64,000 nt of DNA from IMG/VR virus record IMGVR_UViG_3300012925_000001. One strand, 5' to 3'. This document shows positions 9,745 to 23,105 of the stretch, one piece after another. Position 1 is the stretch's first letter, and the number at the start of each line of letters is the position of its first letter. Origin of the DNA: a virus. The position numbers and the translations under genes were made by a program. The notes under the pieces were generated by a model. The model was not told the origin of the DNA and did no database searches. It saw only the letters and a list, made by a program, of their open reading frames with translations.

Positions 9745-9832
9745 CGGCAATAACGACAGCTATCGCACCAACCACGGCATCTTCCACCAGCTACTCGGCA
9801 CGCAGCATAACCGGCATTACAACTATCACCTG

Positions 9833-10311: not shown

Positions 10312-10313
10312 CT

Positions 10314-10550
10314 ATGTTCAGCCCAGTTCTAATTGTCAGAACTAATCCGACGCGGTTATACAACGCAGTTCCACTTTCAGCAGTCGTTCGCATAGCTGAA
10401 ACTATGAACGGGTCAAATATCTATCTTACGGATGGAACCCGCATACATGTGGAGGAGAGCTTGGACAAGATCCTAGCGCAGATCCCTAACGTATACGAAA
10501 CCACCAAAGAAATTCTGTCTGTGTTGATAAATCACGGAGTGATCGCATGA
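10314..10550 (+). CDS. hypothetical small protein (C-terminal VxExxxDxILAxI motif, copy 1)
   Basis: ATG 10314 after AGGAAGGAAGGAAG; motif IHVEESLDKILAQI. Confidence 0.65.
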   Translation: MFSPVLIVRTNPTRLYNAVPLSAVVRIAETMNGSNIYLTDGTRIHVEESLDKILAQIPNVYETTKEILSVLINHGVIA

Positions 10551-10804
10551 GTCCACGCAAATACATTCGTCTGTTCGGTTTCGAGATAGACAGCCGAGAC
10601 GTGCCTATAAAATCTGGGCCAGCTCAACACTTTCTGCTATTCGCCGACAAGCTTGTCAACATCACACCGAGCGAGATTATAGGTGGTGTCACGACTATTA
10701 CAGACACCAACAACAGGACGTACGCGGTAAAGCACACCGTTGACGAGATCCTAGCCAAGATTTTCATGAAACCTGAGAAGGCGGAGGAGGCCACCAATGG
10801 ATGA
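10547..10804 (+). CDS. hypothetical small protein (same C-terminal motif, copy 2)
   Basis: ATGA overlap; motif YAVKHTVDEILAKI parallels upstream ORF. Confidence 0.65.
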   Translation: MSPRKYIRLFGFEIDSRDVPIKSGPAQHFLLFADKLVNITPSEIIGGVTTITDTNNRTYAVKHTVDEILAKIFMKPEKAEEATNG

Positions 10805-11198
10805 CAAGTTCGACTTAGACATCAACGACGAGCGGTTGTCGCAGCAGCACGAGGCGGCAGGCCCGCAGCCGGAACCTGAGCCACCACCATCACCAATCGC
10901 ACGCCCGCTCGAAGTTATAACCGGAGCGCACATCGACATCGAAGTCCGGCCATTCGCCTACTCATTCCTCGGCCTGGGCCACGGTCCAAAAGCGCGTGAA
11001 GTCCGTAACGCTATCTGGAAGTCCGATGCCGAGGAACTGAAAGCGTACGTGCATTCCTTCCGGGGCATCACCGCTAAGATCGTCTACGACCGGAGTTATG
11101 AATGCTCGGAATGCAAAGGTGTGTACGAGTTCGACCCAGCAACCGGCCTGACCGCGTGCTGTGGCCTGCCTGTTGCTGAGGAGCCTGCCAAGCTATGA
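10797..11198 (+). CDS. hypothetical protein with C-terminal Cys cluster (CSEC...CCG)
   Basis: GGAGGAGG before ATG 10797; 8-nt overlap with upstream gene. Confidence 0.7.
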   Translation: MDDKFDLDINDERLSQQHEAAGPQPEPEPPPSPIARPLEVITGAHIDIEVRPFAYSFLGLGHGPKAREVRNAIWKSDAEELKAYVHSFRGITAKIVYDRSYECSECKGVYEFDPATGLTACCGLPVAEEPAKL

Positions 11199-11437
11199 CC
11201 CCCACCGCAGCAGATCATCTAACTGTAACCCTCAATGGAGCTGAGATTCTAATCCTTGAGGATGCACTCAACGTTCGAGCTTGCGAACTGAAAGAAGCGC
11301 GTAAGCAGTTCGACCGAGCACTGGCAGCAGGCACACTGACCGCCGAGAAACATGACTTCAAGATGACACGGTTGTCGAGCAAGCTGTATAAGATCCAACA
11401 ATTGAAGATAAAGCTAGGACGAGCGCAAGAATTGTGA
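11195..11437 (+). CDS. hypothetical helical protein
   Basis: ATGA overlap with upstream gene. Confidence 0.65.
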   Translation: MTPTAADHLTVTLNGAEILILEDALNVRACELKEARKQFDRALAAGTLTAEKHDFKMTRLSSKLYKIQQLKIKLGRAQEL

Positions 11438-11466
11438 TTGACAACCATAGTCAACCATGAGACACT
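11438..11466 (+). promoter_or_regulatory. sigma70-type promoter candidate P7
   Basis: TTGACA 11438-11443 immediately after stop codon, 17 nt, GACACT 11461-11466; upstream GAATTGTGATTGACAA matches P1. Confidence 0.45.
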
Positions 11467-11504
11467 AACTTCAACATACAGACAAGGGAGAAGAGGAAAG
11501 CGAT

Positions 11505-12329
11505 ATGGCAGAGTACGAGTTGGAAAACGGCGATACATACAACACGGCAAACGACGACGCGCGAGACGAGAACGATTTGCTGGATAACGGGACTGACGTG
11601 GCCGAGGTCACACCGTCAGAAACTGTCAAGGCAGTTCTAGACGAATGCCGCGCTTATGAGGCCGAGCACGAAGCGGAGAGCCTTGCAGCAGCCGAGGAAG
11701 CTGAGTTCAACCAGACCATCGACGACGCGCGACTGACTGCAGTCTCATCCGACGATAACCTGGAATCTGAAACCATCCTGCTCCGATACTTAGGGATTGA
11801 GGAGCTTGTTGAGGAGCTTGCTGCCGAGCCGGAGCCAGTTCCCGTCGAAGATCCCGAAGCCAAAGCTCGCCGCGAGTTCATCGCTGGCCTGCGCGATCTA
11901 GCCGACTTCTTCGAACAGAACCCTGAGATCGACAAGCCATACAGCGGATGCACACTGACCCTGTACGTATCCGACAAAAAGAAGTTGGCTAAATATGCCC
12001 GCGCGTTCGGCCATGCAGAAAAGGTAGTCGATGACTACTCATTCCGTCTGAGCAAAGAATTCGGCACAACCGGCGTCAAGGTTGAGACCTACTCGTCTCG
12101 GCAGTCAGTCTGTGAGCGCGTGAAAATCGGCGAGGAGTTCGTGCCGACTCACAAAATCGCAGCCACCGAGGAGCGCTTCGTAGAAGGCCACATGAAAGAT
12201 ATCTACGAGTGGAAGTGCCCAAGCTTACTGGCGATTGCTGGCGAGGATGCTGTTGAAGCTGATGCTGTAGTCGAGCCGACAACCGAAGCCTCAGCGTCAC
12301 AACCGGAACGGGGTATTAGCCTACCATGA
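11505..12329 (+). CDS. hypothetical protein, acidic N-terminal half
   Basis: GGGAGAAGAGGAAAG before ATG 11505; 274 aa. Confidence 0.8.
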   Translation: MAEYELENGDTYNTANDDARDENDLLDNGTDVAEVTPSETVKAVLDECRAYEAEHEAESLAAAEEAEFNQTIDDARLTAVSSDDNLESETILLRYLGIEELVEELAAEPEPVPVEDPEAKARREFIAGLRDLADFFEQNPEIDKPYSGCTLTLYVSDKKKLAKYARAFGHAEKVVDDYSFRLSKEFGTTGVKVETYSSRQSVCERVKIGEEFVPTHKIAATEERFVEGHMKDIYEWKCPSLLAIAGEDAVEADAVVEPTTEASASQPERGISLP

Positions 12330-12583
12330 AACTCGTTGACCCCAGAATCGCGCACCTGATTCCCGGCATTGAACGCTACGTGCACAACCGCGTCCGGCCT
12401 GGTGGATTCCTGTACGCGGTTCTGACCAACGATCTGCGGCAGGCCATTAGCATGGCCGACGCTGACAATATCAACTTGCTGCCGGAGATCGTTAAGTACC
12501 TCTACAACGAGATCCCATACGGCATCTGGGGCTCAGTTGAGGCCGTCGAGCAGCATCTCATGAAAGGTCAAAGGTTAGTCTGA
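12326..12583 (+). CDS. hypothetical protein
   Basis: ATGA overlap; 85 aa. Confidence 0.7.
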   Translation: MKLVDPRIAHLIPGIERYVHNRVRPGGFLYAVLTNDLRQAISMADADNINLLPEIVKYLYNEIPYGIWGSVEAVEQHLMKGQRLV

Positions 12584-12906
12584 TGCCCTATGTCTACCAA
12601 ATCGGCGACCTCACCCTAGCAGTCATCGCTGCGGCCATTCTCGGAGTTCAACTCGGAGCCTGGTGGGGCCGCACAGACATCGAAGACCGGCTGAACAAAC
12701 TATTTGGAGGCACGCCGCTGCAACTCTGGGCCAAGCTCCGAGCTAAGCCAAAAGACCTTATCTCCCTTGCCTCAGTCATCCAACTCCTCCAGCAGCACAA
12801 CGAGGACGACCGCAAGCTCATCGACCGTTGGGATCATGACGCAGGCCGACGGTATTGGTTGCGGCGAGACATCATCGCAATGCTTGAGAAAGTCGAGACG
12901 CTATAG
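12583..12906 (+). CDS. hypothetical protein with N-terminal TM helix
   Basis: TGATG overlap; LTLAVIAAAILGVQLGAWW hydrophobic start. Confidence 0.65.
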   Translation: MPYVYQIGDLTLAVIAAAILGVQLGAWWGRTDIEDRLNKLFGGTPLQLWAKLRAKPKDLISLASVIQLLQQHNEDDRKLIDRWDHDAGRRYWLRRDIIAMLEKVETL

Positions 12907-12908
12907 CC

Positions 12909-13166
12909 ATGCCGACACCCAATCCATACTCGTTCAACTACTTCCACTCCAAAGTCAGATCCACATCGCCAACCACATCAACCGTCAAGATCTGGCATGG
13001 AGGCATTGTCATAGACCGGATAGTCCACCGGATTAGCTTTCGCCGCGCGGTGACTCAGCAGATAGCCGTCTACGTCAGAGACAAATACGGCAGCCATGCT
13101 TCCCTGTTCCAAGCTCAGTACGTAGCTGCACAGCTTCTGAAGAAGCAGAGAGCGATTATTGTATGA
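12909..13166 (+). CDS. hypothetical protein
   Basis: ATG 2 nt after upstream stop. Confidence 0.6.
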   Translation: MPTPNPYSFNYFHSKVRSTSPTTSTVKIWHGGIVIDRIVHRISFRRAVTQQIAVYVRDKYGSHASLFQAQYVAAQLLKKQRAIIV

Positions 13167-13546
13167 AGCCATTCAACCTAGCCGAAGCTTTAGCCGGAGC
13201 GCCTGTCTGCACGCGCGACGGTCGCAAAGTCCTAGAGCTGCATCTGTATGCCGCGCTGCTCCCCACTAACAAGTTCCCTCTCGGTGCTGTGCTCGAAGGA
13301 TCTGACGGCGACGATGGGCCGTTTGCATTGCACTACCGTGAAGATGGCACACGTCTCGGTCCGGTAGACGAGCCAATAGAAAGCCGCACAGACTTGTTCA
13401 TGGCCTCAACCAAGCACACCATCTACCTCAACATCTATCGTGAACCAGACGGTCGCGCATACGGTTACCAGTCCCAGGAAGAAGCTGAACGATTTGCAGG
13501 CGGGAATGCTCTAGCCATAGCCATCCCCGTAGAAGTGGAGTACTAG
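13163..13546 (+). CDS. hypothetical protein
   Basis: ATGA overlap; 127 aa. Confidence 0.7.
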   Translation: MKPFNLAEALAGAPVCTRDGRKVLELHLYAALLPTNKFPLGAVLEGSDGDDGPFALHYREDGTRLGPVDEPIESRTDLFMASTKHTIYLNIYREPDGRAYGYQSQEEAERFAGGNALAIAIPVEVEY

Positions 13547-13551
13547 CCGCC

Positions 13552-13884
13552 ATGCCCCTGCCCGCCTATACCATCGCGTTCACCGTCGCTCTCATCGCAG
13601 GCCCGCACCATACAGCGCATGGCCACCACTTCCTACAAGACTTCAGCAACGCAGGTCTGCACGTCACCGACTGCACAGCCACCTTGCCACACGCCGAAGA
13701 CTTCCCGCTCTACACTCGCTTGTACTGGATCATTGACCCTAATCGCAGAACGCCAGCGACCGTAGATGTTTTTATAACGCCGCCGGAAGAAGTCATGAAC
13801 CTCAAGCCGACGCCCGCGCTGCATATGCCTAAGAAGGTTTACATGGTTTGTAACTACAACTTCGACACTCGGCCAGGAAGGTAG
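13552..13884 (+). CDS. hypothetical protein
   Basis: ATG 5 nt after upstream stop; 110 aa. Confidence 0.6.
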   Translation: MPLPAYTIAFTVALIAGPHHTAHGHHFLQDFSNAGLHVTDCTATLPHAEDFPLYTRLYWIIDPNRRTPATVDVFITPPEEVMNLKPTPALHMPKKVYMVCNYNFDTRPGR

Positions 13885-13893
13885 CCCATAGCT

Positions 13894-14019
13894 ATGATCA
13901 TCTTCCTCACCCTCGCGGTCGCCTACCTGTTCATCGACAGCTTGTTCGCTACGCACTGGATACAGAAACTGGAACGCCGCATTATCGACTTAGAGCTTGA
14001 TCAAAGGCAAGGAGACTAG
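13894..14019 (+). CDS. mini membrane protein (41 aa, below ORF-track cutoff)
   Basis: Hand-translated: MIIFLTLAVAYLFIDSLFATHWIQKLERRIIDLELDQRQGD; fills the gap between 13884 and 14022. Confidence 0.45.
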   Translation: MIIFLTLAVAYLFIDSLFATHWIQKLERRIIDLELDQRQGD

Positions 14020-14021
14020 TT

Positions 14022-14207
14022 ATGCAGCTAGGCGGCCCACTCATCATGATCTGGATCTTCTGCGCGATCTGGGGCGTGTTTTCCCTGATCGACCGGCATT
14101 ACATCACTGGCGTGCTGTGCCTAGCAGTGTTCCTGACTCCTATAGCTGCATTCGCATCGCTGTACTTCACACCACGCGCGCGCACGCGCCAGAAAGGATC
14201 GAAATGA
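14022..14207 (+). CDS. small membrane protein, two hydrophobic helices
   Basis: GGAG 7 nt before ATG 14022; LIMIWIFCAIWGVFSLI and GVLCLAVFLTPIAAFASLYF. Confidence 0.6.
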   Translation: MQLGGPLIMIWIFCAIWGVFSLIDRHYITGVLCLAVFLTPIAAFASLYFTPRARTRQKGSK

Positions 14208-14626
14208 CAATCGAAGAAGCATTTGCAATCGCCAGAACGCTCACTAATGGCTACATAAGCCTCTCGGAGAAGCTACATTACTATCCTGTCGGTAAAGTCT
14301 CAGAGCGCTGGTGCGAAATAGACTTGGATGGAGTCCGTGCCGAGGGCAGCACCTGGGAGAACGCATTGCAAACAGCTACGGGGCCGAATGGTTGGAACCG
14401 GTCTCTTGCCGACTACCCAATCGTCCCCGACTACCTCCACTCGCCAATCGTCTTCATCGATCCACAGACCAAACCTGATCGCATCCTATTGTGTGCATTC
14501 TGGAACAGGGAACGATGGTTGTTCCGCGTCGTCAACGGAGCCTGGGTGAGCACGCGACGAGCTGAAGTAGAAGACTACGACAGCATTCTGAACGCTAAGA
14601 GACTAGAGGTGGTACGACGGGCATGA
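14204..14626 (+). CDS. hypothetical protein
   Basis: ATGA overlap at 14204 (track ORF 13997.. extends upstream over the two mini-ORFs in another frame). Confidence 0.65.
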   Translation: MTIEEAFAIARTLTNGYISLSEKLHYYPVGKVSERWCEIDLDGVRAEGSTWENALQTATGPNGWNRSLADYPIVPDYLHSPIVFIDPQTKPDRILLCAFWNRERWLFRVVNGAWVSTRRAEVEDYDSILNAKRLEVVRRA

Positions 14627-14684
14627 CCACTTTCATCGTATTCATAATCGACACACTTAAAGGAAAGGTAGGGACAGCGGACTA

Positions 14685-14978
14685 ATGAAACGCATCTGGA
14701 AGTATCAAATCGACCTTAACTCAGGCTCTGCATACGCAGTCATTCTAGTCCCACCTCAACGTGTCTTCCGTGCCGCAGCTATGCAAGGCAGTGGCATCAT
14801 CGCCTTATGGTTCGAGGTAGATAACGATGCCGTTTACCAAGCGGAGGAGCTGAACCTGCACGTCTATGGCACCGGCCACGTAATTCTTCCCACGCACTTC
14901 TATCTCGGCACAGTCTTCGACGGTCCATTCGTCTGGCACGTCTATGAAGGCCGCAGTGGATCGGAGCCCTCACGATGA
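14685..14978 (+). CDS. hypothetical protein
   Basis: ATG 14685 after AAAGGAAAGG...; MKRIWKYQI...GTGH...VWHVYE. Confidence 0.65.
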   Translation: MKRIWKYQIDLNSGSAYAVILVPPQRVFRAAAMQGSGIIALWFEVDNDAVYQAEELNLHVYGTGHVILPTHFYLGTVFDGPFVWHVYEGRSGSEPSR

Positions 14979-15223
14979 AACTCTACTTCGTAATCCCCAA
15001 GCACGCTGAAGTTACGCCTGCTAACTTCTCGCCCGCTCTCTCCTGCATAGACCTCGACGGCAACCGCACCCTGGACGCCGTCAAAGCATTCACCAAGCTC
15101 AAGTACGCCAAAGCATTCGTGCGCAGCCAATACCTCTACAACAAGCAAGCACGCGAGACGAAGCTGGAGATCGTAACCACGCTTTGCATCCCAGTAGGCC
15201 GCCCAAGAAAGGCAAGCAAGTAA
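14975..15223 (+). CDS. hypothetical protein
   Basis: ATGA overlap. Confidence 0.65.
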   Translation: MKLYFVIPKHAEVTPANFSPALSCIDLDGNRTLDAVKAFTKLKYAKAFVRSQYLYNKQARETKLEIVTTLCIPVGRPRKASK

Positions 15224-15597
15224 TGCCGATGCCGATACCGACGACTAAACTCTCCCCGCGCCAGCTCAACATCCTCCGCGAACTAGGCATGGTCTGCTAC
15301 GACAAGCATCCTACCCTGCTCATAACTCCAGGTTGGCTTGGCGGTCGTGACGGATCGCACCACTCGCACACCCTGGCCCAGCTCTGCCGCAAAGGCCTAG
15401 CGCACCGAACTAAATGGGGCACGACCGGAGCCTGTAACTGCCGCTGCGGCTCAACAGCGCAGTTCGGCCACCGCTGCAAGGGAAGCTTCAGCTATGACAT
15501 CACGCGCGACGGCGTAATGGCGCTGGCTGATGACGATGTGTTCAAACGGTTCGTGGCCAGACGTGTAGCGAAGGAGGAATCCAATGCCAGCGCCTAA
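15223..15597 (+). CDS. hypothetical protein, possible HTH N-terminus plus Cys/His cluster
   Basis: TAATG overlap at 15223; LSPRQLNILRELG... then CNCRCGS...HRC. Confidence 0.6.
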   Translation: MPMPIPTTKLSPRQLNILRELGMVCYDKHPTLLITPGWLGGRDGSHHSHTLAQLCRKGLAHRTKWGTTGACNCRCGSTAQFGHRCKGSFSYDITRDGVMALADDDVFKRFVARRVAKEESNASA

Positions 15598-15931
15598 GAA
15601 CTACCACAACCAAGATCCGTTCATGACGAATCCTGCATACACGCGCGAGGCTCTGCGCATCGAGCACGCAGCTTTCGAAAAAGCCGAGCGTGCTACGGGC
15701 AAAGCTTGGCATGATATTCCTACGCTGACTGATTGGGTGCTGCTACGCCTGCAAACCGCCGAAGACTCTCTCGCCAAGCTAAAGGAGAACGCGTGCTCTG
15801 TGCCAATTCCGGCAGCTACACGCCTTACAGGTGCATGCAAATTCTGTGGCTACCTACTTGACGATCACCTGCTCGATCAGGACGGCACCTGGTTCTGTCC
15901 ACCGCCAACAGCAGCGAAGGCCAAGCCATGA
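15584..15931 (+). CDS. hypothetical protein
   Basis: 14-nt overlap with upstream gene; GGAGGA upstream of ATG 15584. Confidence 0.65.
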   Translation: MPAPKNYHNQDPFMTNPAYTREALRIEHAAFEKAERATGKAWHDIPTLTDWVLLRLQTAEDSLAKLKENACSVPIPAATRLTGACKFCGYLLDDHLLDQDGTWFCPPPTAAKAKP

Positions 15932-16155
15932 CCCTTGCTGACTACCTATTTATCGCTTGGCTCATCAACTTCGTTGTAGTCCTCATCATGATCCGTCTGG
16001 CCTACGCGCGCACGAACTTCTACGATCGGTTCTCAGTCCAGACCGACAACTGGATCAATACATTCCTGATCACGTTCATCCTGCAGACTGCATTCATGGT
16101 CACCTACAACTTCGCCCGTCTAATCCATCTCTATCATCTCCACGGAAGGTCCTAG
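15928..16155 (+). CDS. small membrane protein (two to three TM helices)
   Basis: ATGA overlap; strongly hydrophobic 75 aa. Confidence 0.65.
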   Translation: MTLADYLFIAWLINFVVVLIMIRLAYARTNFYDRFSVQTDNWINTFLITFILQTAFMVTYNFARLIHLYHLHGRS

Positions 16156-16162
16156 CCTAGCC

Positions 16163-16858
16163 ATGCCCAACAATCCCGCCAACCTCCATCACTGTCATCT
16201 CGTCACACCGATGACTAACACACTCAACAAAACTCTCTGTGGCTTGAATATCATCCACAGCATGAGTCCAACTCAGGGACCCCCCAGTACCTGGCGCACT
16301 TACCGGACTAGCGATGTCACCTGCAGCGATTGCATCCAGATCCTCAAGGATAAGGATATGTGGAAGGAGTCGGAGCCGGGGCCGAAATCAGAGGACAATC
16401 CATACCTCAAGGAAGACTATGTAGCTAAATCCGAAGCCGACCACAGCCGACGCTTCAACGTGGATTATATGATGGCCCCTGCTGTGCCGCCAGCGCTCTC
16501 CACCTTCGAGCAGAAACTACTCGCCTCCGCTCAGCAGCAGATCCTCAAGATGTTCTCAGACGGCAGTCTCGTCATGCCAGACTACGCCAACCGTATCAAG
16601 ATCCCAGCTGACCTCGTCCAGAAAATCTACTCCTTGATCGACTACGACCAAGTCCTGGAACTCCTGCGACCTAAAATCAACGAGCTCGTCGCCAAAAAGA
16701 TCCTACACGTACTCACCGAGGAACTCAGTGCCGACGTCAAAAAGACTATGTCCACCGGCCCGATCCGCGACAAGCTCAAAGCTACTCTCACAGTCGAGCT
16801 GGCTAAGGTCGTGCATGTCGCCGACGAACTTGCCAAGCTGAAAGCCCGCCAGCCATGA
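16163..16858 (+). CDS. hypothetical protein
   Basis: 231 aa, no competing ORF. Confidence 0.75.
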   Translation: MPNNPANLHHCHLVTPMTNTLNKTLCGLNIIHSMSPTQGPPSTWRTYRTSDVTCSDCIQILKDKDMWKESEPGPKSEDNPYLKEDYVAKSEADHSRRFNVDYMMAPAVPPALSTFEQKLLASAQQQILKMFSDGSLVMPDYANRIKIPADLVQKIYSLIDYDQVLELLRPKINELVAKKILHVLTEELSADVKKTMSTGPIRDKLKATLTVELAKVVHVADELAKLKARQP

Positions 16859-17055
16859 CCGAACTCCTTTCCTATACACGCTTCTGGTTCGCCAAGTTCC
16901 TCGTTGAACTCTGCCTGACTATTGGTATGCTGGCTACAATCTTATTCGTGGTCTGTGTGCACAACTTCATCGAACGTCACAGAAAGGATCGTGCTGACCT
17001 GACAGAGCCTGACTCGGATCTCGGCTGGGACGACGACAAATGGTGGCATAACTGA
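16855..17055 (+). CDS. small membrane protein
   Basis: ATGA overlap; FLVELCLTIGMLATILFVVCV helix. Confidence 0.6.
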   Translation: MTELLSYTRFWFAKFLVELCLTIGMLATILFVVCVHNFIERHRKDRADLTEPDSDLGWDDDKWWHN

Positions 17056-17282
17056 TGACTATCTATGTTCGACGAATGTCTGTGCAGGACATGTACAACA
17101 CCGTCAACCGGCAGCTTACTCTCGTCCCGGCTTGCGACGAGACAGACTTCGCTAAAACCATCCTAGGCGTGCTGTGCGAGATGGCGTCACGGTACATCCA
17201 AGAGTCTAACGACGAAGGCGAGCAGCAGCTCATGCACAAGCTACAGGCCCTGCCGCCTGTTGACCCGAAGGATATGAACTGA
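17055..17282 (+). CDS. hypothetical protein
   Basis: TGATG overlap. Confidence 0.6.
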   Translation: MTIYVRRMSVQDMYNTVNRQLTLVPACDETDFAKTILGVLCEMASRYIQESNDEGEQQLMHKLQALPPVDPKDMN

Positions 17283-17449
17283 TGCCCGAGCCTAAGATTA
17301 GAGACTATCCCGTGATCCCGTCCGAGGCTGTTCCGCCCGGCGAGATCTGGTTCGCCACACCTGAAGGCATCACGCACAAAATCATTGGTGTCGACTCAAC
17401 CACGCCCACTGTAGATGACTTACTAGAGACCTCCGATGACTCCGACTGA
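17282..17449 (+). CDS. possible 55-aa ORF (below ORF-track cutoff)
   Basis: TGATG overlap at 17282; hand-translated MPEPKIRDYPVIPSEAVPPGEIWFATPEG...; fills an otherwise empty 150 nt. Confidence 0.4.
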   Translation: MPEPKIRDYPVIPSEAVPPGEIWFATPEGITHKIIGVDSTTPTVDDLLETSDDSD

Positions 17450-17822
17450 AGCTCGTAGCATAGTCCGCCGCGAGCTCCCCAACGCTCAACATAACTCGAA
17501 CGACTTCAACTATCACTGGATCGAGCCTGGCCCGCCAATCTCGGAAGCCTTCCTTGAAGACGAAGCCGAAACCGAAATCTGGATGAACCTAGCCCGTGAC
17601 GGTCACGACCGCACAGACGAGGAACACTTGGCATCCTTCAACATGCTAATGAAGATCCAACAGGACGCCGAAGACCGCGCCTGGATCAACGCAGCCGAGC
17701 GTATCCTCACCCAAGCCAAGCTCAAGCGCACTAAATTCTGGAATCGATTCTTCGATGTAGTAATCGGTCTAGGATTCATATTGTTCATCACCGACTTCCT
17801 CATCCGACACGGAGTTATCTAG
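17436..17822 (+). CDS. hypothetical protein with C-terminal TM helix
   Basis: 128 aa; FFDVVIGLGFILFITDFLI near C-terminus. Confidence 0.65.
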   Translation: MTPTEARSIVRRELPNAQHNSNDFNYHWIEPGPPISEAFLEDEAETEIWMNLARDGHDRTDEEHLASFNMLMKIQQDAEDRAWINAAERILTQAKLKRTKFWNRFFDVVIGLGFILFITDFLIRHGVI

Positions 17823-17824
17823 CC

Positions 17825-18265
17825 ATGCGAACAACTCACACCACAACAATCCTGACCTGCGACCGCTGCCGTTGCGTCACATCAGACCTGCGCCGGATCT
17901 ATCGGCTCGACACCGAAAACGGTAGCATGTCCTATTCCACTTACTGTCAGCATGAACTACTATCCGAGCTATGCTTGACCTGCACGGCCCAGCTCAACCA
18001 CTTCCTCAATCCTAGCGAGACTGCGCCTGTAGACCCGCGCCTGACAGAAGCTTCTCCCGCTGAACCTGCTCCAGCATCTCCTGCTCCACATCCTCAACCC
18101 TCAGCTGAGGAAGCAACGCAGCCGGAAGCAACCTCACCGCCAGCCCAGTCCCCTGTGCCGACCACTCAACTAGACCAATCCCCGACAGAGTGGCTACGGT
18201 CTTGGCTAAGGTCCCCCGAGACCAACCGAACCGTCGCTCCACCAGATCAGGACGAAGAAGTTTAG
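17825..18265 (+). CDS. Cys-rich (CDRC...CLTC) protein with Pro/Ser/Ala-rich tail
   Basis: ATG 2 nt after upstream stop; the last ~85 codons are low-complexity and overlap a minus-strand ORF (see findings). Confidence 0.55.
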   Translation: MRTTHTTTILTCDRCRCVTSDLRRIYRLDTENGSMSYSTYCQHELLSELCLTCTAQLNHFLNPSETAPVDPRLTEASPAEPAPASPAPHPQPSAEEATQPEATSPPAQSPVPTTQLDQSPTEWLRSWLRSPETNRTVAPPDQDEEV

Positions 18266-18368
18266 TCCGGTAAAGGTTATAGCTGCTAATTAGCTGTAGC
18301 GCCTGCTGACACTGCTGTGGCTTCAACCCGGCGATCTGCTGCAACGCATAGCTACTGTACATCGTCAT
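18012..18368 (-). CDS. candidate antisense winged-helix DNA-binding protein
   Basis: ORF covers the otherwise non-coding gap 18266-18385; LVERRFGWSRGTLAKTVATLSGIGLVEWSAQGTGLAVRLL reads as HTH + wing; start uncertain (ATG 18368/18362, GTG 18404). Confidence 0.35.
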   Translation of the reverse strand: MTMYSSYALQQIAGLKPQQCQQALQLISSYNLYRTKLLRPDLVERRFGWSRGTLAKTVATLSGIGLVEWSAQGTGLAVRLLPAALLPQLRVEDVEQEMLEQVQREKLLSGAGLQAQSR

Positions 18369-18385
18369 GAAAGGATGATACTCGA

Positions 18386-18634
18386 ATGGCCCGCACCTGC
18401 GCACTTATCCTCACCTGCCCGACCTGCGACGCGCAGCCTTACCAACGCTGTTGGCAGACTGACCCCAGGTCGTTCTTCGGCCAGAAGATACTCGCTACGG
18501 GTAACTATCATCCAGCACGCCTGGCTGCAGCGCGTAGGCAGGAACGTAACCAGAAACTACAGCCGCAGCCGCAGCCGCAACCCCTCCCCGACCCTGACTA
18601 CATCGACATTGCCGACCAGTGGGGAGACTACTGA
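18386..18634 (+). CDS. small zinc-finger protein (CPTCDAQPYQRC ... HPAR)
   Basis: CxxCxAxPxxxC motif also present in 39919..40128; Gln/Pro repeat tail. Confidence 0.65.
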   Translation: MARTCALILTCPTCDAQPYQRCWQTDPRSFFGQKILATGNYHPARLAAARRQERNQKLQPQPQPQPLPDPDYIDIADQWGDY

Positions 18635-18652
18635 TTATTTTCCTTCAGAGGG

Positions 18653-18680
18653 TTGACAACGGTTGAGCATGGTGTACACT
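18653..18680 (+). promoter_or_regulatory. sigma70-type promoter candidate P2 (RNA-repair operon, near-leaderless)
   Basis: TTGACA 18653-18658, 16 nt, TACACT 18675-18680; ATG 18688 lies only 7 nt after the -10. Confidence 0.55.
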
Positions 18681-18687
18681 ATCCTAC

Positions 18688-19167
18688 ATGGACAACGATA
18701 ACTTCGACCGACCCGCCGCCGCCAACGCCGCTCTCAAAACTCTAACTGATGCTGAAGAGAGCGTGCACGCTCGCCTGACCGACCTTACCGCTCGCCGCAA
18801 AACCGTCGAAGACGCTGTGACCATGCTGCAGCTCTGGTACGCGGACCCGACCAACATCGACATCCTGGCTGAGTTCCAACCCGGCGACCCAATCTTCTCC
18901 GAGATCGCATCGAACTCCTGGAAGCTGGAGCCTGCAGGCAAGGTCACCAGCATCTACCTCGAACCGGCATACCCACGTTTCTACGTTCGCTCAGTCGAGC
19001 CTACAATCTGCTACGCTTTCGACCGCGCACCTGGCTATCGATACGGCGACAACACCCACTCCTCGAACGGTTGCTCCAGGTACTTCGGCGTGGACGAGTA
19101 CAACAGCAAGATTCGGTCCGAGATTGATTCACTGCAACGCAAGCTCAACGTCAACGTGAAAGGTTAG
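18688..19167 (+). CDS. hypothetical protein (first gene of RNA-repair operon)
   Basis: 159 aa; no SD, start at predicted transcription start. Confidence 0.7.
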   Translation: MDNDNFDRPAAANAALKTLTDAEESVHARLTDLTARRKTVEDAVTMLQLWYADPTNIDILAEFQPGDPIFSEIASNSWKLEPAGKVTSIYLEPAYPRFYVRSVEPTICYAFDRAPGYRYGDNTHSSNGCSRYFGVDEYNSKIRSEIDSLQRKLNVNVKG

Positions 19168-19177
19168 CCACACTCCA

Positions 19178-20065
19178 ATGCCCAAGCTCACTCTAATGCG
19201 CGGTCTGCCTGCGTCCGGCAAGACCACCAAAGCACGCGAACTCGTCAAGGCCAGCGGCTCGGCCGCGCGCATCAACCGTGACGACCTGCGCGCCATGCTG
19301 TTCAACTCTTCCTGGTCCGGCAAGCGCGAAGAAATCATCATCGCAGCGGAGAAAGCTCTCGTCGCTGTCCTGGCCAAGCACAACCACAACGCCATCATCG
19401 ACGATACCAACCTCTCGACGAAGCACGTAGACATGTGGCGGAACGTGGCCAAGGAAACCTACGGCGAGAACAGTTTCGTCATAGAATCCTTACTCGACGT
19501 GCCTCGCTACGAATGTGTTCGTCGTGATCACGCTCGCCAATTCGATCACGATAGCAAGTTCGTGGGCCGTGCTGTGATTGACCGGATGGCCTTAGCCAAC
19601 GACCTGATCGACTGGAACAACCGGCCGATAATCCTGGTCGACATAGATGGCACTCTCGCAGACGGAACCCACCGCCAGCACTATGTCACCCGTCCCGAAG
19701 GCGAGAAGAAAGACTGGGACTCCTACTACGAAGCTCTCAGCTACGACGAGCCAATCTCGTTCGTAATGCGATGGGTACGAAAGCTCGCTGAAGACCACAC
19801 GATCTGCCTAGTCTCAGGCCGTCCTGACACCTACCAGCGTGAAACCATGAACTGGCTGATCAAATGGGCTGTGCCTTACGACTACCTGTTCATGCGGAGT
19901 GGGGGAGATCATCGCCCAGACACCGAAGTCAAGGCGAAGATCCTGAAGCATATCCCTCGGGACCTGCTGCAGTTTGTAATCGATGACCGTCCACAAGTGA
20001 TACGTATGTGGAGGGAAAACGGAGTGAAAGTCTACCCAGTTCGAGGAGCATGTGATGAGTTCTAG
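19178..20065 (+). CDS. polynucleotide 5'-kinase / 3'-phosphatase (T4 Pnkp-like)
   Basis: N-terminal P-loop MRGLPASGKT; C-terminal HAD motif I LVDIDGTLAD and later VIDDR; domain order as in T4 Pnkp. Confidence 0.88.
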   Translation: MPKLTLMRGLPASGKTTKARELVKASGSAARINRDDLRAMLFNSSWSGKREEIIIAAEKALVAVLAKHNHNAIIDDTNLSTKHVDMWRNVAKETYGENSFVIESLLDVPRYECVRRDHARQFDHDSKFVGRAVIDRMALANDLIDWNNRPIILVDIDGTLADGTHRQHYVTRPEGEKKDWDSYYEALSYDEPISFVMRWVRKLAEDHTICLVSGRPDTYQRETMNWLIKWAVPYDYLFMRSGGDHRPDTEVKAKILKHIPRDLLQFVIDDRPQVIRMWRENGVKVYPVRGACDEF

Positions 20066-21194
20066 ATCTACCCATGCTGCGAGTCACATCCACGATCTAT
20101 TCTCAGACGCTGATTTCCAGATTCAACGCGACCTTGGCATGGTCAAGGTCACCAAGCATCCTATGCTGCCGCTGTTCATTTATAACTACACGCAGCGCGC
20201 GCAGTTCACGCCCGAGCATTGGAACCACGTGACTGACTTGTGCCGCGGCCTAGTCGTTGACTCGCTCGGCTACATCGTCGCACGTGGCTTCAAGAAATTC
20301 TGGAACATCAATGACGCGCGTCATCCTGAAACGATGATGGAGAACTTGCCCGCCACGCCGCCCACCTTGACCACGAAACTCGATGGCTCACTCGGCATCG
20401 CTTTCCGTTACTACAGTGAATGGCATGTAGCAACCCGAGGCTCATTCGACTCGCCACAGGCTATCTGGGCGACTGCATGGCTACGTGCCAACGTGCCAGA
20501 CCTTACTGCTCCCCTAAACACGACCTTGCTGTTCGAGATCGTCTATCCTGCGAATCAGATTGTAGTCAAATACGATTGGTCTGGCTTAGTTCTGCTTGCA
20601 GCAATCGACAACAACAGCGGATGCGAACTCCGCTATACCTATCTCAAGAAATATGCACAGGCCCAGGGATTATCGATTGTTACGCAGCATGCCAAGCCTC
20701 TAACCGAAGCCATCACCGAGGACATCGACAACGAGGAAGGCTATGTAGCGACCTGGCTGAATGCTGCTGGCCCGCCGCTCAAGGTCAAGATCAAATACGC
20801 GACCTACTGCCGGCTTCATCGCATGCTGACTCAGACCTCGCCGCTCACAGTTTGGGAAGCTCTGCGCGACAACCTGGACCTGGACAAGCTGTCGGCTGAT
20901 TCGCCTGCCGAGTTCCAGACCTGGGTCGGCAGCGTGATCCGTGACCTTCGAGGCAAATACGCAGCCATCGAGCAAGCCGCGCTGGACGCATACCTGACCT
21001 ATAAACCAGACCCCAACCTTCCCGAAGACGTAGCTGCCTACAAGAAACATTTTGCTGAGTATGCTAAATCACAACCTGCCAACATTACGCATCTGCTGTT
21101 CGCCCTGCAGTCTCAGAAAGACCTTGCACCTCAAATCTGGAAGCAGATCCGGCCGACGCAGCAGTACGTTTTCAAAACCGACATTGATACATAA
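20055..21194 (+). CDS. ATP-dependent RNA ligase (T4 Rnl1-like)
   Basis: Motif I lysine in TTKLDGSLG; upstream LCRGLVV...ARGFKKFWN resembles Rnl1 N-terminal region; GAGGAG 5 nt before ATG 20055; adjacent to Pnkp. Confidence 0.8.
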   Translation: MSSRSTHAASHIHDLFSDADFQIQRDLGMVKVTKHPMLPLFIYNYTQRAQFTPEHWNHVTDLCRGLVVDSLGYIVARGFKKFWNINDARHPETMMENLPATPPTLTTKLDGSLGIAFRYYSEWHVATRGSFDSPQAIWATAWLRANVPDLTAPLNTTLLFEIVYPANQIVVKYDWSGLVLLAAIDNNSGCELRYTYLKKYAQAQGLSIVTQHAKPLTEAITEDIDNEEGYVATWLNAAGPPLKVKIKYATYCRLHRMLTQTSPLTVWEALRDNLDLDKLSADSPAEFQTWVGSVIRDLRGKYAAIEQAALDAYLTYKPDPNLPEDVAAYKKHFAEYAKSQPANITHLLFALQSQKDLAPQIWKQIRPTQQYVFKTDIDT

Positions 21195-21212
21195 CCTAAG
21201 GAGAATACGAAG

Positions 21213-21578
21213 ATGACGAAGAATCTGACCAACATGGCCCTTGCACTAGCATTGGCCACTACTACTTGCATCCACGCACAGACCGCTAAGCCAGCAGCTC
21301 CAGCCGCCACGCCAGCTCCTATGCCAATCACCATCCCCGCAGACTCCTTCAAGGAACTGAACTACTACATCCTTCAGGCCGAGAACCTCGACCTCAAGGC
21401 CAAGCAAACCCACGCTGACATCGACAAACAAGTAGCACAACAAATGCAGCAGATCCAAGCGCAGGCTAGCCCAATAATCGAAAAACTACGCAAGGATCTG
21501 AAAGTGCCTGCCAACTTCGTGCTTGACCAGACTAAGCAGGCGTTTGTTCCTCCACCACCAGCGTCCGCACACAACTAA
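21213..21578 (+). CDS. secreted/periplasmic coiled-coil protein (signal peptide)
   Basis: AAGGAG before ATG; MTKNLTNMALALALATTTCIHA|QT signal-peptide-like start; Gln-rich helical remainder. Confidence 0.65.
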   Translation: MTKNLTNMALALALATTTCIHAQTAKPAAPAATPAPMPITIPADSFKELNYYILQAENLDLKAKQTHADIDKQVAQQMQQIQAQASPIIEKLRKDLKVPANFVLDQTKQAFVPPPPASAHN

Positions 21579-21595
21579 GGGAGCTTATCTCAGCC

Positions 21596-21943
21596 ATGAC
21601 CATCGCCCAACAAAATCTCGACCTAGCTCTATCGCTCTTGACTGACATGTCTATGGCTGACCTGGAGACCTTGCTCCGCCACACCAAAACCGAACTGAGC
21701 TACAAGAAATCCCTACGCGTCTGCAAGCTCTGCTCGGCGCACTTTCAGCGCATCCATCAGGCTCAGAAATACTGTAGCCTAGCTTGCGTTGAAAAAGTCA
21801 TGCAGCAGGGTAAAAACGACTGGTGGCGTAAGCACGGAACTGAGTGGCGGGATCAAGTCCGTACGCCAGAACAGAAAGAACGACTGCAAGTCAAACGTGC
21901 TACTCGGGCCACGCTCAAACAAATAGAAGGGATGATCGACTAG
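21596..21943 (+). CDS. zinc-ribbon protein (CKLC ... QKYCSLAC)
   Basis: Cys4 motif parallel to 10012..10311. Confidence 0.65.
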   Translation: MTIAQQNLDLALSLLTDMSMADLETLLRHTKTELSYKKSLRVCKLCSAHFQRIHQAQKYCSLACVEKVMQQGKNDWWRKHGTEWRDQVRTPEQKERLQVKRATRATLKQIEGMID

Positions 21944-21945
21944 CT

Positions 21946-23022
21946 ATGAACCACAACGACTTCAGCCACCTTAACCAGATCGTCTACATGGACTTCGGCA
22001 GCCATCTCTATGGCACCATGACTCCGACGTCTGACTTCGACTTCAAAGGGATACATATCCCCACAGCCCAGGAAATCCTGCTGCAGCGCGTCCAGGAATC
22101 TGTCAGCAACCGGCAGTCGAAGCAGCCTGGCGAAAAGAACTTGCCCGGCCAGTCCGAATGCGAGTCCTACGCACTGTCTAAATTCCTCAAGATGGCAGCC
22201 GAAGGCCAGACTGTCGCGCTGGACATGCTGTTCGCACCGGTAGAGCACTGGGGCGTCTCCAGCCGTCTCTGGGAGGTCATTGTCAATAACCGTGAGAAGT
22301 TGCTGACGTCGCGCACAGCTGCGTTCCTCGGCTATTGCCGTCGTCAAGTCAACAAGTATGGCATCAAAGGCTCGCGCGTCAAAGCTGCTGAAGACGCCAT
22401 GCTGCTCTTCTATGCACTATGCAAAGCCGATCACTACAACGACCCTATCAGTGAAATCGATCATTGGCTACGCGGCAAGGGCACCTCAGAGCACTCCAGC
22501 GTCATCGAGCATCCGATCGGCCCAACTGGAGAGCTTGGATTGTTCTATGAAGTTTGTGGGCGCAAAATCGCATACAACACCAGAACCCAGGAAGCCTATA
22601 AGATCTGCGAGCGCATCTACAACGAATACGGCCACCGCGCCCACCTCGCCAAAGACAATTCAGGCGTCGACTGGAAGGCAGTTTCGCACGCCGTCCGCGT
22701 CGGCTACCAAGCGATCGAGCTGCTAACAGATCACCACATAACCTTTCCGATCCCACAAGCCGCTCAAGTCACTCGCATCAAGCTCGGCGAGGTTCCATTC
22801 GACACCTGCGCTCAGCTAATCGAGGAGCTTATGCTTGCGGTCGAGCACGCTGCAGTCGGCAGCACTCTGCCGGAGGAACCCGACCACCAGTTCATCCAGG
22901 ACCTCATCATCAGCTCGAACATGCTTACCGTGCTCAACGCTGGTGAACCTGACCTGGCTCACGCGATCTACAGCGACGACTGGCCGACAGTCGTGCAGAC
23001 CGAGTACGACGAGAGCTATTAG
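21946..23022 (+). CDS. nucleotidyltransferase, PF10127/RlaP-like (RNA-ligase-associated)
   Basis: N-terminal FGSHLYGTMTPTSDFDFKGIH matches the GSxxYGxxxxxSDxDxxG pol-beta-type NTase signature of that family as I recall it; ATG 21946 two nt after upstream stop. Confidence 0.7.
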   Translation: MNHNDFSHLNQIVYMDFGSHLYGTMTPTSDFDFKGIHIPTAQEILLQRVQESVSNRQSKQPGEKNLPGQSECESYALSKFLKMAAEGQTVALDMLFAPVEHWGVSSRLWEVIVNNREKLLTSRTAAFLGYCRRQVNKYGIKGSRVKAAEDAMLLFYALCKADHYNDPISEIDHWLRGKGTSEHSSVIEHPIGPTGELGLFYEVCGRKIAYNTRTQEAYKICERIYNEYGHRAHLAKDNSGVDWKAVSHAVRVGYQAIELLTDHHITFPIPQAAQVTRIKLGEVPFDTCAQLIEELMLAVEHAAVGSTLPEEPDHQFIQDLIISSNMLTVLNAGEPDLAHAIYSDDWPTVVQTEYDESY

Positions 23023-23048
23023 ACTACTAGTTAGCTCGCGAACACGAC

Positions 23049-23081
23049 AAAGCCCAGCAGGATTGGAAGCTGCTGGGCTTT
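23049..23081. terminator. bidirectional stem-loop terminator between convergent units
   Basis: AAAGCCCAGCAG 23049-23060 / CTGCTGGGCTTT 23070-23081, 9-nt loop; A-run before and T-run after. Confidence 0.65.
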
Positions 23082-23105
23082 GTCTGGTACAAGGTGCTAC
23101 TGCTA

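What the first reader, a model, noticed from the sequence alone, without database searches (positions are those of the whole stretch)
18653..23081. Autonomous six-gene RNA-repair operon: Pnkp + Rnl1-like ligase + RlaP-like NTase + three unknowns
Promoter P2 (18653-18680) and the strong hairpin 23049-23081 bracket six genes:
- a leaderless 159-aa unknown
- T4-type Pnkp (GLPASGKT kinase, DIDGT phosphatase)
- an Rnl1-like ligase (KLDGS)
- a signal-peptide coiled-coil protein
- a CxxC...QKYCSxxC zinc ribbon
- a PF10127/RlaP-like nucleotidyltransferase

Pnkp+Rnl1 is the T4 pair that heals tRNA cut by anticodon nucleases (PrrC-type defence). RlaP-type NTases have, to my knowledge, only been predicted computationally as ligase-associated repair factors.

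This is an extended counter-defence cassette in a single transcription unit. It contains an exported protein and two unknown partners, and I am not aware of it having been characterised.
Basis: partly seen in the sequence, partly recalled or inferred. Interest (0 to 1): 0.62.

Follow-up and report, generated by a model that had tools for sequence, protein, structure and literature searches.

The report
Phage tRNA break-repair gene cluster
An uncultured phage carries the three known enzymes that heal, refill and reseal RNA cut by bacterial defence nucleases, packed together with three small genes found only in this phage lineage; it is an ordinary example of a toolkit already catalogued in many phages.

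Summary
The six + strand genes, the promoter-like site and the hairpin are all present at the stated coordinates. HMMs confirm three enzymes: a T4-type bifunctional Pnkp, an Rnl1-superfamily RNA ligase and an RlaP nucleotidyltransferase of the T4 NrdC.11 type. All keep their catalytic motifs. Together they make a plausible heal, fill-in and seal pathway for cleaved tRNA.

The reading as an autonomous, uncharacterised six-gene cassette does not hold.
- The three small proteins have no homologues beyond a ~93% identical sibling contig. The one exception is a weak relative of the exported protein, whose locus could not be found. None of the three occurs near Pnkp, Rnl or RlaP in 142 other viral loci or 42 bacterial loci.
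- The sibling lacks the ligase gene and has an extra gene inserted, so the unit is not fixed.
- The same triad is clustered in an unrelated viral contig. All three enzymes also occur, dispersed, in T4-like phages.
- RlaP has been named since 2016 and was characterised biochemically and structurally in a December 2025 preprint.

The promoter match is no better than chance on its own. This scan has already noted such cassettes in at least 123 other genomes. Verdict: real, correctly annotated, a new member of a known kind, low interest.

The parts
18617..18633 (+). Weak terminator-like hairpin with a T-rich tail. It overlaps the stop codon of the upstream 82-aa zinc-finger gene (18386-18634, PF24623).
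   Evidence: The fold is not better than shuffles (z = -0.98), so read-through from upstream is plausible.
18653..18680 (+). Sigma-70-like promoter candidate, TTGACA-16-TACACT
   Evidence: It is the only such site in the window, but the chance expectation is 0.59. It is conserved in the sibling, which is uninformative at 94% identity.
18688..19167 (+). 159-aa orphan protein. Its ATG lies 7 nt after the -10 hexamer with no Shine-Dalgarno sequence, so it may be leaderless. Function unknown.
   Evidence: No family match in Pfam, NCBIfam or PADLOC. The only homologue in 5.8 billion proteins is the sibling's. dN/dS 0.11. AF2 pLDDT 57, and no fold match.
19178..20065 (+). T4-type bifunctional polynucleotide 5'-kinase / 3'-phosphatase (Pnkp)
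   Evidence: PF13671 on residues 4-138 and PF25109 on residues 151-288. PDB matches: Pnkp1 4xrp at 1.4e-28 and T4 Pnk 1ltq at 1.6e-17 over the full length. Motifs GLPASGKT, NRDDLR, DIDGT, SGR and DDR are conserved.
20055..21194 (+). Rnl1-superfamily ATP-dependent RNA ligase. Its start overlaps the 3' end of Pnkp. The gene is absent from the sibling contig.
   Evidence: PF09511 at 52 bits and phrog_562 at 8.7e-55 over residues 26-369. T4 Rnl1 structures 2c5u, 5tt6 and 9do4 match at about 1e-8. K108-x-D-G111, E161, E228-G229 and K245-x-K247 are invariant in alignment A5. The T4 RnlA equivalog cut-off is not reached.
21213..21578 (+). 121-aa protein with a predicted N-terminal Sec signal peptide, a Pro/Ala linker and a helical region. 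Probably periplasmic. Function unknown.
   Evidence: A full HMMER scan of 1.84 billion representatives found only a fragment of itself plus one weak relative, P0005 (35% identity, E = 2.9e-4), with the same architecture. The signal-peptide reading is by eye: an ...A|Q junction is conserved in three homologues.
21596..21943 (+). 115-aa CxxC...CSxxC zinc-ribbon protein followed by a basic helix. Its stop codon lies 2 nt before the RlaP ATG. Function unknown.
   Evidence: The match to the NinG N-terminal region is weak and below the cut-off (PF05766, 2.7e-4, 21.3 bits against 25.4). The only homologue in 5.8 billion proteins is the sibling's. No hit in phage genomes by tblastn. dN/dS 0.04. AF2 pLDDT 56.
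21946..23022 (+). RlaP-family (PF10127) Pol-beta nucleotidyltransferase of the T4 NrdC.11 type
   Evidence: PF10127 at 48 bits and phrog_388 at 2.6e-78. It is 37-41% identical to NrdC.11-type proteins in 1504 phage records. Aeh1 NrdC.11 itself scores 49.6 bits on PF10127. G18-S19 and D30-x-D32 are invariant, and an acidic residue at position 93 is conserved.
23046..23084 (.). Perfect 15-bp hairpin between convergent genes. Candidate bidirectional terminator without a U-tract.
   Evidence: -36 kcal/mol for the surrounding 83 nt, z = -3.9, 0 of 200 shuffles as stable.

Best explanation
This is the distal part of a rightward accessory-gene block of an uncultured tailed phage. It encodes a three-enzyme repair pathway for RNA, most likely host tRNA, that has been cut by a defence nuclease.

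Proposed mechanism:
1. Pnkp removes the 2',3'-cyclic or 3'-phosphate and phosphorylates the 5'-OH end.
2. The NrdC.11-type RlaP adds back one or two nucleotides at the 3'-OH if the nuclease also trimmed the break, as RloC does.
3. The Rnl1-family ligase seals the 3'-OH and 5'-phosphate ends.

The enzyme identities and intact active-site motifs are shown. The substrate, the order of steps and the counter-defence role are inferred from T4 Pnkp/Rnl1 and from the published RlaP biochemistry.

The three small genes interleaved with the enzymes are real, selected genes: the 159-aa orphan, the exported 121-aa protein and the 115-aa zinc-ribbon protein. They are lineage-specific passengers of a gene-flux-prone region. 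They are not demonstrated repair factors, and an exported protein cannot take part in cytoplasmic tRNA repair.

The cluster is modular. Pnkp-Rnl is the widely conserved core pair, RlaP is only sometimes linked to it, and the ligase itself is present or absent between near-identical phages.
For: - **Enzyme families and motifs:**
- **Phage context:** Dda-like helicase, DNA polymerase, tail fibre; no tRNA genes and no Rfam hits.
- **Pnkp-Rnl adjacency elsewhere:**
  - Viral contigs with 49-62% identical proteins.
  - Arthrobacter phage Bauer gp70-gp71.
  - 32 of 63 other Pnkp viral loci carry a ligase within 6 kb.
  - 38 of 42 bacterial loci.
- **Triad clustered elsewhere:** RlaP, Pnkp and Rnl lie on one strand with small ORFs between them in the unrelated contig L034, confirmed by Pfam. 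Three more triad loci appear.
- **Triad dispersed in a T4-like phage:** in Aeh1, all three are present at about 83, 185 and 202 kb.
- **RlaP activity:** it adds 1-2 NMP to RNA 3'-OH ends, prefers cleaved-tRNA mimics and is proposed to answer RloC-type nucleases; T4 NrdC.11 is a family member (preprint 10.64898/2025.12.29.696909).
- **RlaP distribution:** it mirrors that of RNA ligases in phages (PMC7824862).
- **Orphan status and non-co-occurrence of the three small genes:**
- **Sibling with ligase missing and extra gene:**
Against: - No activity, substrate or expression data exist for these proteins.
- The host and its nucleases are unknown.
- The ligase is only a distant Rnl1 relative: 39.6 bits against a cut-off of 242 for the T4 RnlA equivalog model. 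Its closest cultured relatives are 33-35% identical actinophage enzymes that have not been tested.
- The tight spacing, the 2-nt gap between the zinc-ribbon gene and RlaP, and the very low dN/dS of the zinc-ribbon gene (0.04) would fit a functional partnership that I cannot exclude.
- The sibling keeps Pnkp and RlaP without the ligase, so these two may have a ligase-independent role.
Confidence: 0.72

Rival explanations
1. All six genes form one dedicated, autonomously transcribed RNA-repair and counter-defence cassette, and the three unknowns are accessory repair or anti-nuclease factors.
For: - All six genes lie on the same strand with tight spacing (gaps of 2-18 nt, or an overlap) and mostly good Shine-Dalgarno sequences.
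- A promoter-like site lies upstream and a strong hairpin downstream.
- The five genes shared with the sibling are under purifying selection.
- The zinc-ribbon gene stops 2 nt before the RlaP start codon.
Against: - The unknowns have no homologues outside the sibling.
- They are absent from 79 RlaP loci, 63 Pnkp loci and 42 ligase loci.
- The ORF just upstream of RlaP is unrelated from phage to phage.
- One unknown is predicted to be exported.
- The sibling lacks the ligase and has an additional inserted gene.
- The promoter match is no better than chance.
Confidence: 0.1
2. Pnkp and RlaP mainly serve a ligase-independent end-repair function, for example rebuilding trimmed tRNA 3' ends or healing DNA ends. 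The ligase is an optional add-on gained by recombination in this phage.
For: - The sibling contig keeps Pnkp and RlaP but has about 48 bp in place of the ligase.
- Five other viral loci have Pnkp and RlaP with no Rnl1-type ligase within 6 kb.
- Erythrobacter phage XM05 has RlaP with no Rnl1 or Pnkp anywhere in its complete genome.
- An earlier scan note (e1-3277783) reports ligase-free RlaP pairs.
Against: - The sibling record is only about 29% complete, so a ligase could lie elsewhere in that genome.
- Other ligase families (Rnl2, RtcB) were not searched for.
- In this window the ligase is intact, overlaps the Pnkp 3' end and keeps all its catalytic residues.
- Pnkp-Rnl adjacency is the commonest arrangement among relatives.
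Confidence: 0.12
3. The region is not its own operon. It is the tail end of the long rightward gene array (about 3.6-23 kb), transcribed mainly by read-through, and the TTGACA/TACACT site is a chance match.
For: - All sizeable ORFs from 3660 to 23022 are on the + strand.
- The promoter scan finds no excess over shuffles.
- The upstream hairpin is weak (z = -0.98).
Against: - The match is 10 of 12 with a perfect -35 hexamer and 16-nt spacing.
- It sits in a 53-nt intergenic gap.
- The first ORF lacks any Shine-Dalgarno sequence, while its ATG sits exactly where a transcript from this promoter would begin.
Confidence: 0.35

Closest known systems
Bacteriophage T4 tRNA repair set: Pnkp (pseT), Rnl1 (gp63/RnlA) and the RlaP homologue NrdC.11
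   Same: It has the same three enzyme families.
- Pnkp shows the same kinase plus HAD-phosphatase architecture and aligns over the full length with the T4 Pnk structure 1ltq.
- The ligase matches T4 Rnl1 structures and keeps nucleotidyltransferase motifs I, III, IV and V.
- RlaP is 37-40% identical to NrdC.11 proteins of T4-like phages.

The presumed role is to reverse anticodon-nuclease damage.
   Different: - Here the three genes lie within 4.3 kb on one strand. In the T4-like phage Aeh1 they are 17-118 kb apart.
- The ligase is far from a T4 RnlA equivalog.
- The phage is otherwise unrelated to T4 and has no tRNA genes.
Clustered RlaP-Pnkp-Rnl1 loci in other uncultured phages (for example IMGVR_UViG_3300045779_000011 = L034) and the RlaP-ligase neighbourhoods of Burroughs & Aravind 2016 and Iyer et al. 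2021
   Same: The same three Pfam families lie on one strand within about 4.5 kb, with small unknown ORFs interleaved. RlaP was named for exactly this association (PMC7824862; preprint introduction).
   Different: - The gene order differs: RlaP comes first in L034 and last here.
- The interleaved small ORFs are unrelated.
- Protein identities are only 33-44%.
Phage and bacterial Rnl-Pnkp two-gene modules (Arthrobacter phage Bauer gp70-gp71, Bacillus Thrax phages, Actinoplanes chromosomes)
   Same: An Rnl1-family ligase and a T4-type Pnkp are adjacent and often overlap. Ligase identity to the window's protein is 30-36%.
   Different: - The order is usually ligase then kinase; here it is kinase then ligase.
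- No PF10127 RlaP is nearby. Thrax4 has a different minimal Pol-beta NTase.
Pseudomonas RtcB-RlaP-RtcA operons (PfRlaP and PaRlaP, biochemically characterised)
   Same: Same Pfam family and the same conserved GS and Asp catalytic signature. The predicted job is the same: adding missing nucleotides to a broken RNA before sealing.
   Different: - This protein belongs to a different RlaP cluster (NrdC.11 type).
- It is paired with a 5'-phosphate ligase rather than the 3'-phosphate ligase RtcB. That pairing avoids the end-chemistry conflict discussed in the preprint.
- There is no sequence hit to any PDB chain.

Membership tests
T4-type polynucleotide kinase-phosphatase (Pnkp) | N-terminal P-loop kinase domain with GxxxxGK[ST] and the NRDD acid/Arg motif | tested here: met
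   PF13671 at 6.9e-19 on residues 4-138. GLPASGKT at residue 9 and NRDDLR at residue 33 align with T4 GCPGSGKS and NRDDYR.
T4-type polynucleotide kinase-phosphatase (Pnkp) | C-terminal HAD/DxDGT 3'-phosphatase domain in the same polypeptide | tested here: met
   PF25109 at 3.9e-27 on residues 151-288. DIDGT at 155, SGR at 213 and DDR at 269 are invariant in alignment A4.
T4-type polynucleotide kinase-phosphatase (Pnkp) | 5'-kinase and 3'-phosphatase activity on RNA or DNA ends | not testable with these tools
   Needs a biochemical assay.
Rnl1 family of ATP-dependent RNA ligases (PF09511) | Score above the Pfam gathering threshold; covalent nucleotidyltransferase motifs I (KxDG), III, IV (EGYV) and V (KxK) | tested here: met
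   52.3 bits against a cut-off of 28.3. K108-L-D-G111, E161, E228-G-Y-V and K245-I-K247 align with the T4 Rnl1 motifs and are invariant among five relatives.
Rnl1 family of ATP-dependent RNA ligases (PF09511) | Family-specific C-terminal domain beyond the nucleotidyltransferase core | tested here: inconclusive
   phrog_562 aligns over residues 26-369. The PDB and Pfam alignments with T4 Rnl1 stop at about residue 275.
T4 RnlA equivalog (NCBIfam TIGR02308) | Score at or above the equivalog cut-off | tested here: not met
   39.6 bits against a cut-off of 242. It is a distant relative, not an orthologue of T4 RnlA.
RlaP (PF10127) Pol-beta nucleotidyltransferases | Score above the Pfam gathering threshold; hG[GS] plus DxD plus a third acidic residue | tested here: met
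   48.4 bits against a cut-off of 23. G18-S19 and D30-x-D32 are invariant, with D/E at position 93. The score is similar to that of Aeh1 NrdC.11.
RlaP (PF10127) Pol-beta nucleotidyltransferases | Genomic association with an RNA ligase | tested here: met
   The ligase lies 750 bp upstream on the same strand. Among relatives the association is infrequent: 3 of 79 loci have an Rnl1-type ligase within 6 kb.
RlaP (PF10127) Pol-beta nucleotidyltransferases | Adds 1-2 NMP to RNA 3'-OH ends | not testable with these tools
   Shown only for the Pseudomonas enzymes (preprint).
NinG/Rap (PF05766), considered for the 115-aa protein | Score above the gathering threshold, and a C-terminal HNH-type nuclease domain | tested here: not met
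   21.3 bits against a cut-off of 25.4. Only profile positions 4-70 of 193 are matched, and the protein ends there.

The most novel reading that the evidence does not exclude
The lineage-specific zinc-ribbon protein (21596-21943) is translationally coupled to RlaP and is the most constrained gene of the block. It could be an RNA-binding specificity subunit that directs RlaP, or the whole repair set, to a particular damaged tRNA. The ligase-less sibling could then show that Pnkp + zinc-ribbon protein + RlaP form a ligase-independent RNA-end repair module.
Probability: 0.08. Interest if true: 0.5.

Novelty: new member of a known kind. Interest (0 to 1): 0.24.

Why it matters
It adds one compact Pnkp-Rnl1-RlaP cluster, from a very poorly annotated phage lineage, to an already catalogued class of phage counter-defence toolkits. 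The host may be an Acidobacteriota member, on weak evidence.

Its modest value is practical. Two near-identical natural variants, one with the ligase and one without, would make a clean comparison for asking what RlaP and Pnkp do without a dedicated ligase. An NrdC.11-type RlaP paired with a 5'-phosphate ligase is also the chemically compatible combination that the 2025 RlaP study pointed to but did not test.

Tried and rejected
- **Homologue searches for the three unknowns.**
  - The word-indexed search of 5.8 billion proteins found only the sibling copies of the 159-aa and 115-aa proteins.
  - The full HMMER scan for the 121-aa protein gave one weak relative, P0005.
  - P0005's locus could not be found in viral, genome or metagenome contigs.
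- **Annotated phages.** tblastn of the zinc-ribbon protein found nothing.
- **A conserved small partner upstream of RlaP.** ORFs of 115-123 aa do sit there in XM05, Cr30 and Aeh1, but they are mutually unrelated. No cluster of upstream ORFs spans the 80 RlaP loci. Rejected.
- **Structure.** AlphaFold single-sequence models of the 159-aa and 115-aa proteins had pLDDT 57 and 56. Foldseek on the first gave a best E-value of 0.84. Unusable.
- **Sequence searches of the PDB.** Nothing for the unknowns or for RlaP, singly or as a profile.
- **PADLOC and NCBIfam.** Nothing for the unknowns.
- **Rfam and tRNA scans of the window.** Nothing.
- **Literature.** Burroughs & Aravind 2016 (PMC5062991) is not held. 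It is cited only through papers that cite it.
- **Other ligase families.** Rnl2, RtcB and similar ligases in the window or in the related loci were not systematically searched.

Full report
**What is there**

Between 18.6 and 23.1 kb the window has six closely spaced + strand ORFs:
- 18688-19167, 159 aa
- 19178-20065, 295 aa
- 20055-21194, 379 aa (start overlaps the end of the previous gene)
- 21213-21578, 121 aa
- 21596-21943, 115 aa
- 21946-23022, 358 aa

The last five have recognisable Shine-Dalgarno sequences. The first has none, and its ATG lies 7 nt after a TTGACA-16-TACACT promoter-like site at 18653-18680.

A perfect 15-bp hairpin (23046-23060 / 23070-23084) follows the last gene and separates it from a convergent leftward gene. 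It is much more stable than shuffled sequence (z = -3.9, 0 of 200) but has no U-tract.

The promoter match alone is not significant. A site this good is expected 0.59 times per window, and the regional scan finds no excess. The small hairpin upstream is weak. All sizeable ORFs from 3.6 to 23 kb are on the + strand, so read-through from upstream is a live alternative.

**Context**

The window is an uncultured tailed phage with very few recognisable genes: a Dda-like helicase, a DNA polymerase, a Sak4-like protein and a collagen-like tail fibre. Most other ORFs have no Pfam family. It has no tRNA genes and no Rfam hits, and no related cultured phage at the DNA level. No whole genome is held for it.

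- **Pnkp.**
  - It has an N-terminal P-loop kinase (PF13671, 6.9e-19) and a C-terminal HAD phosphatase (PF25109, 3.9e-27).
  - It aligns end to end with the T4 Pnk structure 1ltq (1.6e-17), and better with Capnocytophaga Pnkp1 4xrp (1.4e-28).
  - It retains GLPASGKT, NRDDLR, DIDGT, SGR and DDR.
- **Ligase.**
  - It passes PF09511 (52 bits against a cut-off of 28) and matches phrog_562, the T4 gp63 family, at 8.7e-55 over nearly its whole length.
  - It hits only T4 Rnl1 among solved structures.
  - It keeps K108-x-D-G111, E161, E228-G-Y-V and K245-x-K247, which are invariant in five relatives.
  - It is a distant member: 39.6 bits against the cut-off of 242 for the T4 RnlA equivalog model.
  - Its nearest cultured relatives are 33-35% identical ligases of Streptomyces and Arthrobacter phages.
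- **RlaP.**
  - The last gene passes PF10127 (48 bits against a cut-off of 23) and phrog_388 (2.6e-78).
  - It is 37-41% identical to proteins in 1504 phage records. Many are T4-like phages where the gene is annotated nrdC.11. Aeh1 NrdC.11 scores the same on PF10127.
  - The Pol-beta signature is conserved: G18-S19, D30-x-D32 and an acidic residue at position 93.

**How it most likely works**

By analogy with T4 (Amitsur et al. 1987, as cited in PMC9703825 and the RlaP preprint), Pnkp converts 2',3'-cyclic-phosphate and 5'-OH ends into 3'-OH and 5'-phosphate ends, and the Rnl1-type ligase seals them.

A December 2025 preprint (10.64898/2025.12.29.696909) reports several relevant points:
- Pseudomonas RlaP enzymes add one or two NMPs to RNA 3'-OH ends and prefer a cleaved-tRNA mimic.
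- RlaP is proposed to restore nucleotides removed by 'smart' nucleases such as RloC before ligation.
- T4 NrdC.11 is a family member.
- RlaP products are directly compatible with 5'-phosphate ligases.

That last combination is the one found here. The enzyme identities and intact motifs are shown. The substrate, the order of steps and the biological role are inferred.

**The three small genes**

All three are genuine genes: dN/dS against the sibling contig is 0.11, 0.13 and 0.04.

- The 159-aa and 115-aa proteins have no homologue in 5.8 billion proteins other than the sibling copy.
- The 121-aa protein has only one weak relative in a full HMMER scan of 1.84 billion representatives. That relative, P0005, is 35% identical (E = 2.9e-4) and has the same signal peptide, Pro/Ala linker and helical architecture. 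Its locus could not be recovered.
- The 115-aa protein resembles the N-terminal zinc ribbon and basic region of NinG, but the match is below threshold and it lacks the nuclease domain.
- No family, defence-system or PDB search gave anything more.
- Single-sequence AlphaFold models were of low confidence.

**Do they travel with RNA-repair genes? No.**

- Among 79 non-sibling viral loci with an NrdC.11-type RlaP (38-49% identity), none has a relative of any of the three within 6 kb. The ORF immediately upstream of RlaP is different from lineage to lineage.
- The same is true of 63 non-sibling Pnkp loci.
- It is also true of 42 bacterial loci with a related ligase.

A predicted exported protein is also hard to fit into cytoplasmic RNA repair.

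**The unit is not fixed**

A sibling contig (IMGVR_UViG_3300012926_000015) is 91-94% identical in DNA. It was also recovered from a Logan assembly, which has the same gene order. It has these features:
- It carries the 159-aa gene, Pnkp, the exported protein, the zinc-ribbon gene and RlaP.
- It has an extra 110-aa CxxC gene between the first two.
- It lacks the ligase. Window positions 20070-21276 correspond to about 48 bp there.
- Its exported-protein gene starts at the same GTGATGAGTTCT that begins the ligase here, and has a different signal peptide.

The direction of the change (gain or loss) cannot be decided. That record is only about 29% complete, so another ligase elsewhere cannot be excluded.

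In another relative, L004, the reverse has happened: Pnkp is reduced to a 60-aa C-terminal remnant in front of an intact ligase.

**How common is the arrangement?**

- Pnkp-Rnl adjacency is the conserved core:
  - viral contigs with 49-62% identical proteins;
  - Arthrobacter phage Bauer gp70-gp71;
  - Bacillus phage Thrax4;
  - a ligase within 6 kb in 32 of 63 Pnkp viral loci;
  - 38 of 42 bacterial loci, mostly Actinoplanes and Micromonospora chromosomes.
- RlaP joins the pair less often. Four of the 63 Pnkp loci and one of the 79 RlaP loci have all three within 6 kb.
- The clearest case is L034: RlaP, four small ORFs, Pnkp, one small ORF, then Rnl on one strand, confirmed by Pfam.
- In the complete genome of the T4-like phage Aeh1 the three genes are all present but lie at about 83, 185 and 202 kb.
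- Iyer et al. 2021 (PMC7824862) already state that RlaP is the most prevalent repair NTase in large phages and that its distribution mirrors that of RNA ligases, citing Burroughs & Aravind 2016, who named it.
- This scan's own notebook lists 133 findings in at least 123 genomes that mention such cassettes.

**Verdict**

It is wrong that the six genes form a conserved or novel cassette, and it is out of date about RlaP. This is a new member of a known kind of phage counter-defence module.

The only mildly unusual points are:
- the compaction of all three enzymes into 4.3 kb;
- the possibly leaderless first gene;
- the natural ligase-plus and ligase-minus pair of near-identical phages.

Noticed in passing
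L001 5551-9077 (IMGVR_UViG_3300012926_000015), against window 18688-23022: A 91-94% identical sibling contig lacks the RNA ligase gene: window 20070-21276 is replaced by about 48 bp. It also carries an extra 110-aa CxxC...CxxC gene (L001 6056-6388) between the 159-aa gene and Pnkp. Its exported-protein gene has a different signal peptide and starts where the ligase starts in the window.
   Followed up: yes
L004 5765-7053 (IMGVR_UViG_3300028268_000002): Only a 60-aa C-terminal remnant of Pnkp remains directly upstream of an intact ligase that is 52% identical to the window's. This looks like decay of the kinase partner, the reverse of the ligase loss in the sibling.
   Followed up: partly
L160-L199 (genome contigs): Dozens of Actinoplanes and Micromonospora chromosomes carry an adjacent Rnl1-family ligase and T4-type Pnkp pair. 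The ligases are about 36% identical to the window's and about 50% identical to the ligase of Arthrobacter phage Bauer. None has an NrdC.11-type RlaP within 6 kb. Whether these pairs are chromosomal or prophage-borne was not examined.
   Followed up: no
L158 (CAXTMK010000062.1, Acidobacteriaceae MAG) and L159 (Terriglobia MAG): The closest genomic relatives of the ligase (50% and 39% identity) lie in Acidobacteriota MAG contigs, and a Tunturiibacter phage is among the ligase hits in cultured phages. This is a weak hint that the window's phage infects Acidobacteriota.
   Followed up: no
window 22915-23022: The RlaP protein has a C-terminal extension of roughly 26-36 residues (…GEPDLAHAIYSDDWPTVVQTEYDESY). 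It is shared with the sibling but absent from the XM05, Cr30 and Aeh1 homologues (alignment A3).
   Followed up: no
window 18688-18822: In the first 45 codons of the 159-aa gene, the window and the sibling differ by 5 non-synonymous changes and 1 synonymous change, all clustered in codons 21-26. The gene as a whole has dN/dS of 0.11. The N-terminal helix may be less constrained, or the true start may lie further downstream.
   Followed up: partly
window 18386-18634: The gene just upstream of the promoter-like site encodes an 82-aa protein with a PF24623 'Phage_zn_bind_8' zinc finger (1.5e-7).
   Followed up: partly
L007 (Erythrobacter phage XM05, complete genome): This cultured phage has one of the closest RlaP relatives (41% identity) but no PF09511 ligase and no PF25109 Pnkp phosphatase domain anywhere in its 152-kb genome. 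RlaP therefore also occurs without either T4-type partner.
   Followed up: partly
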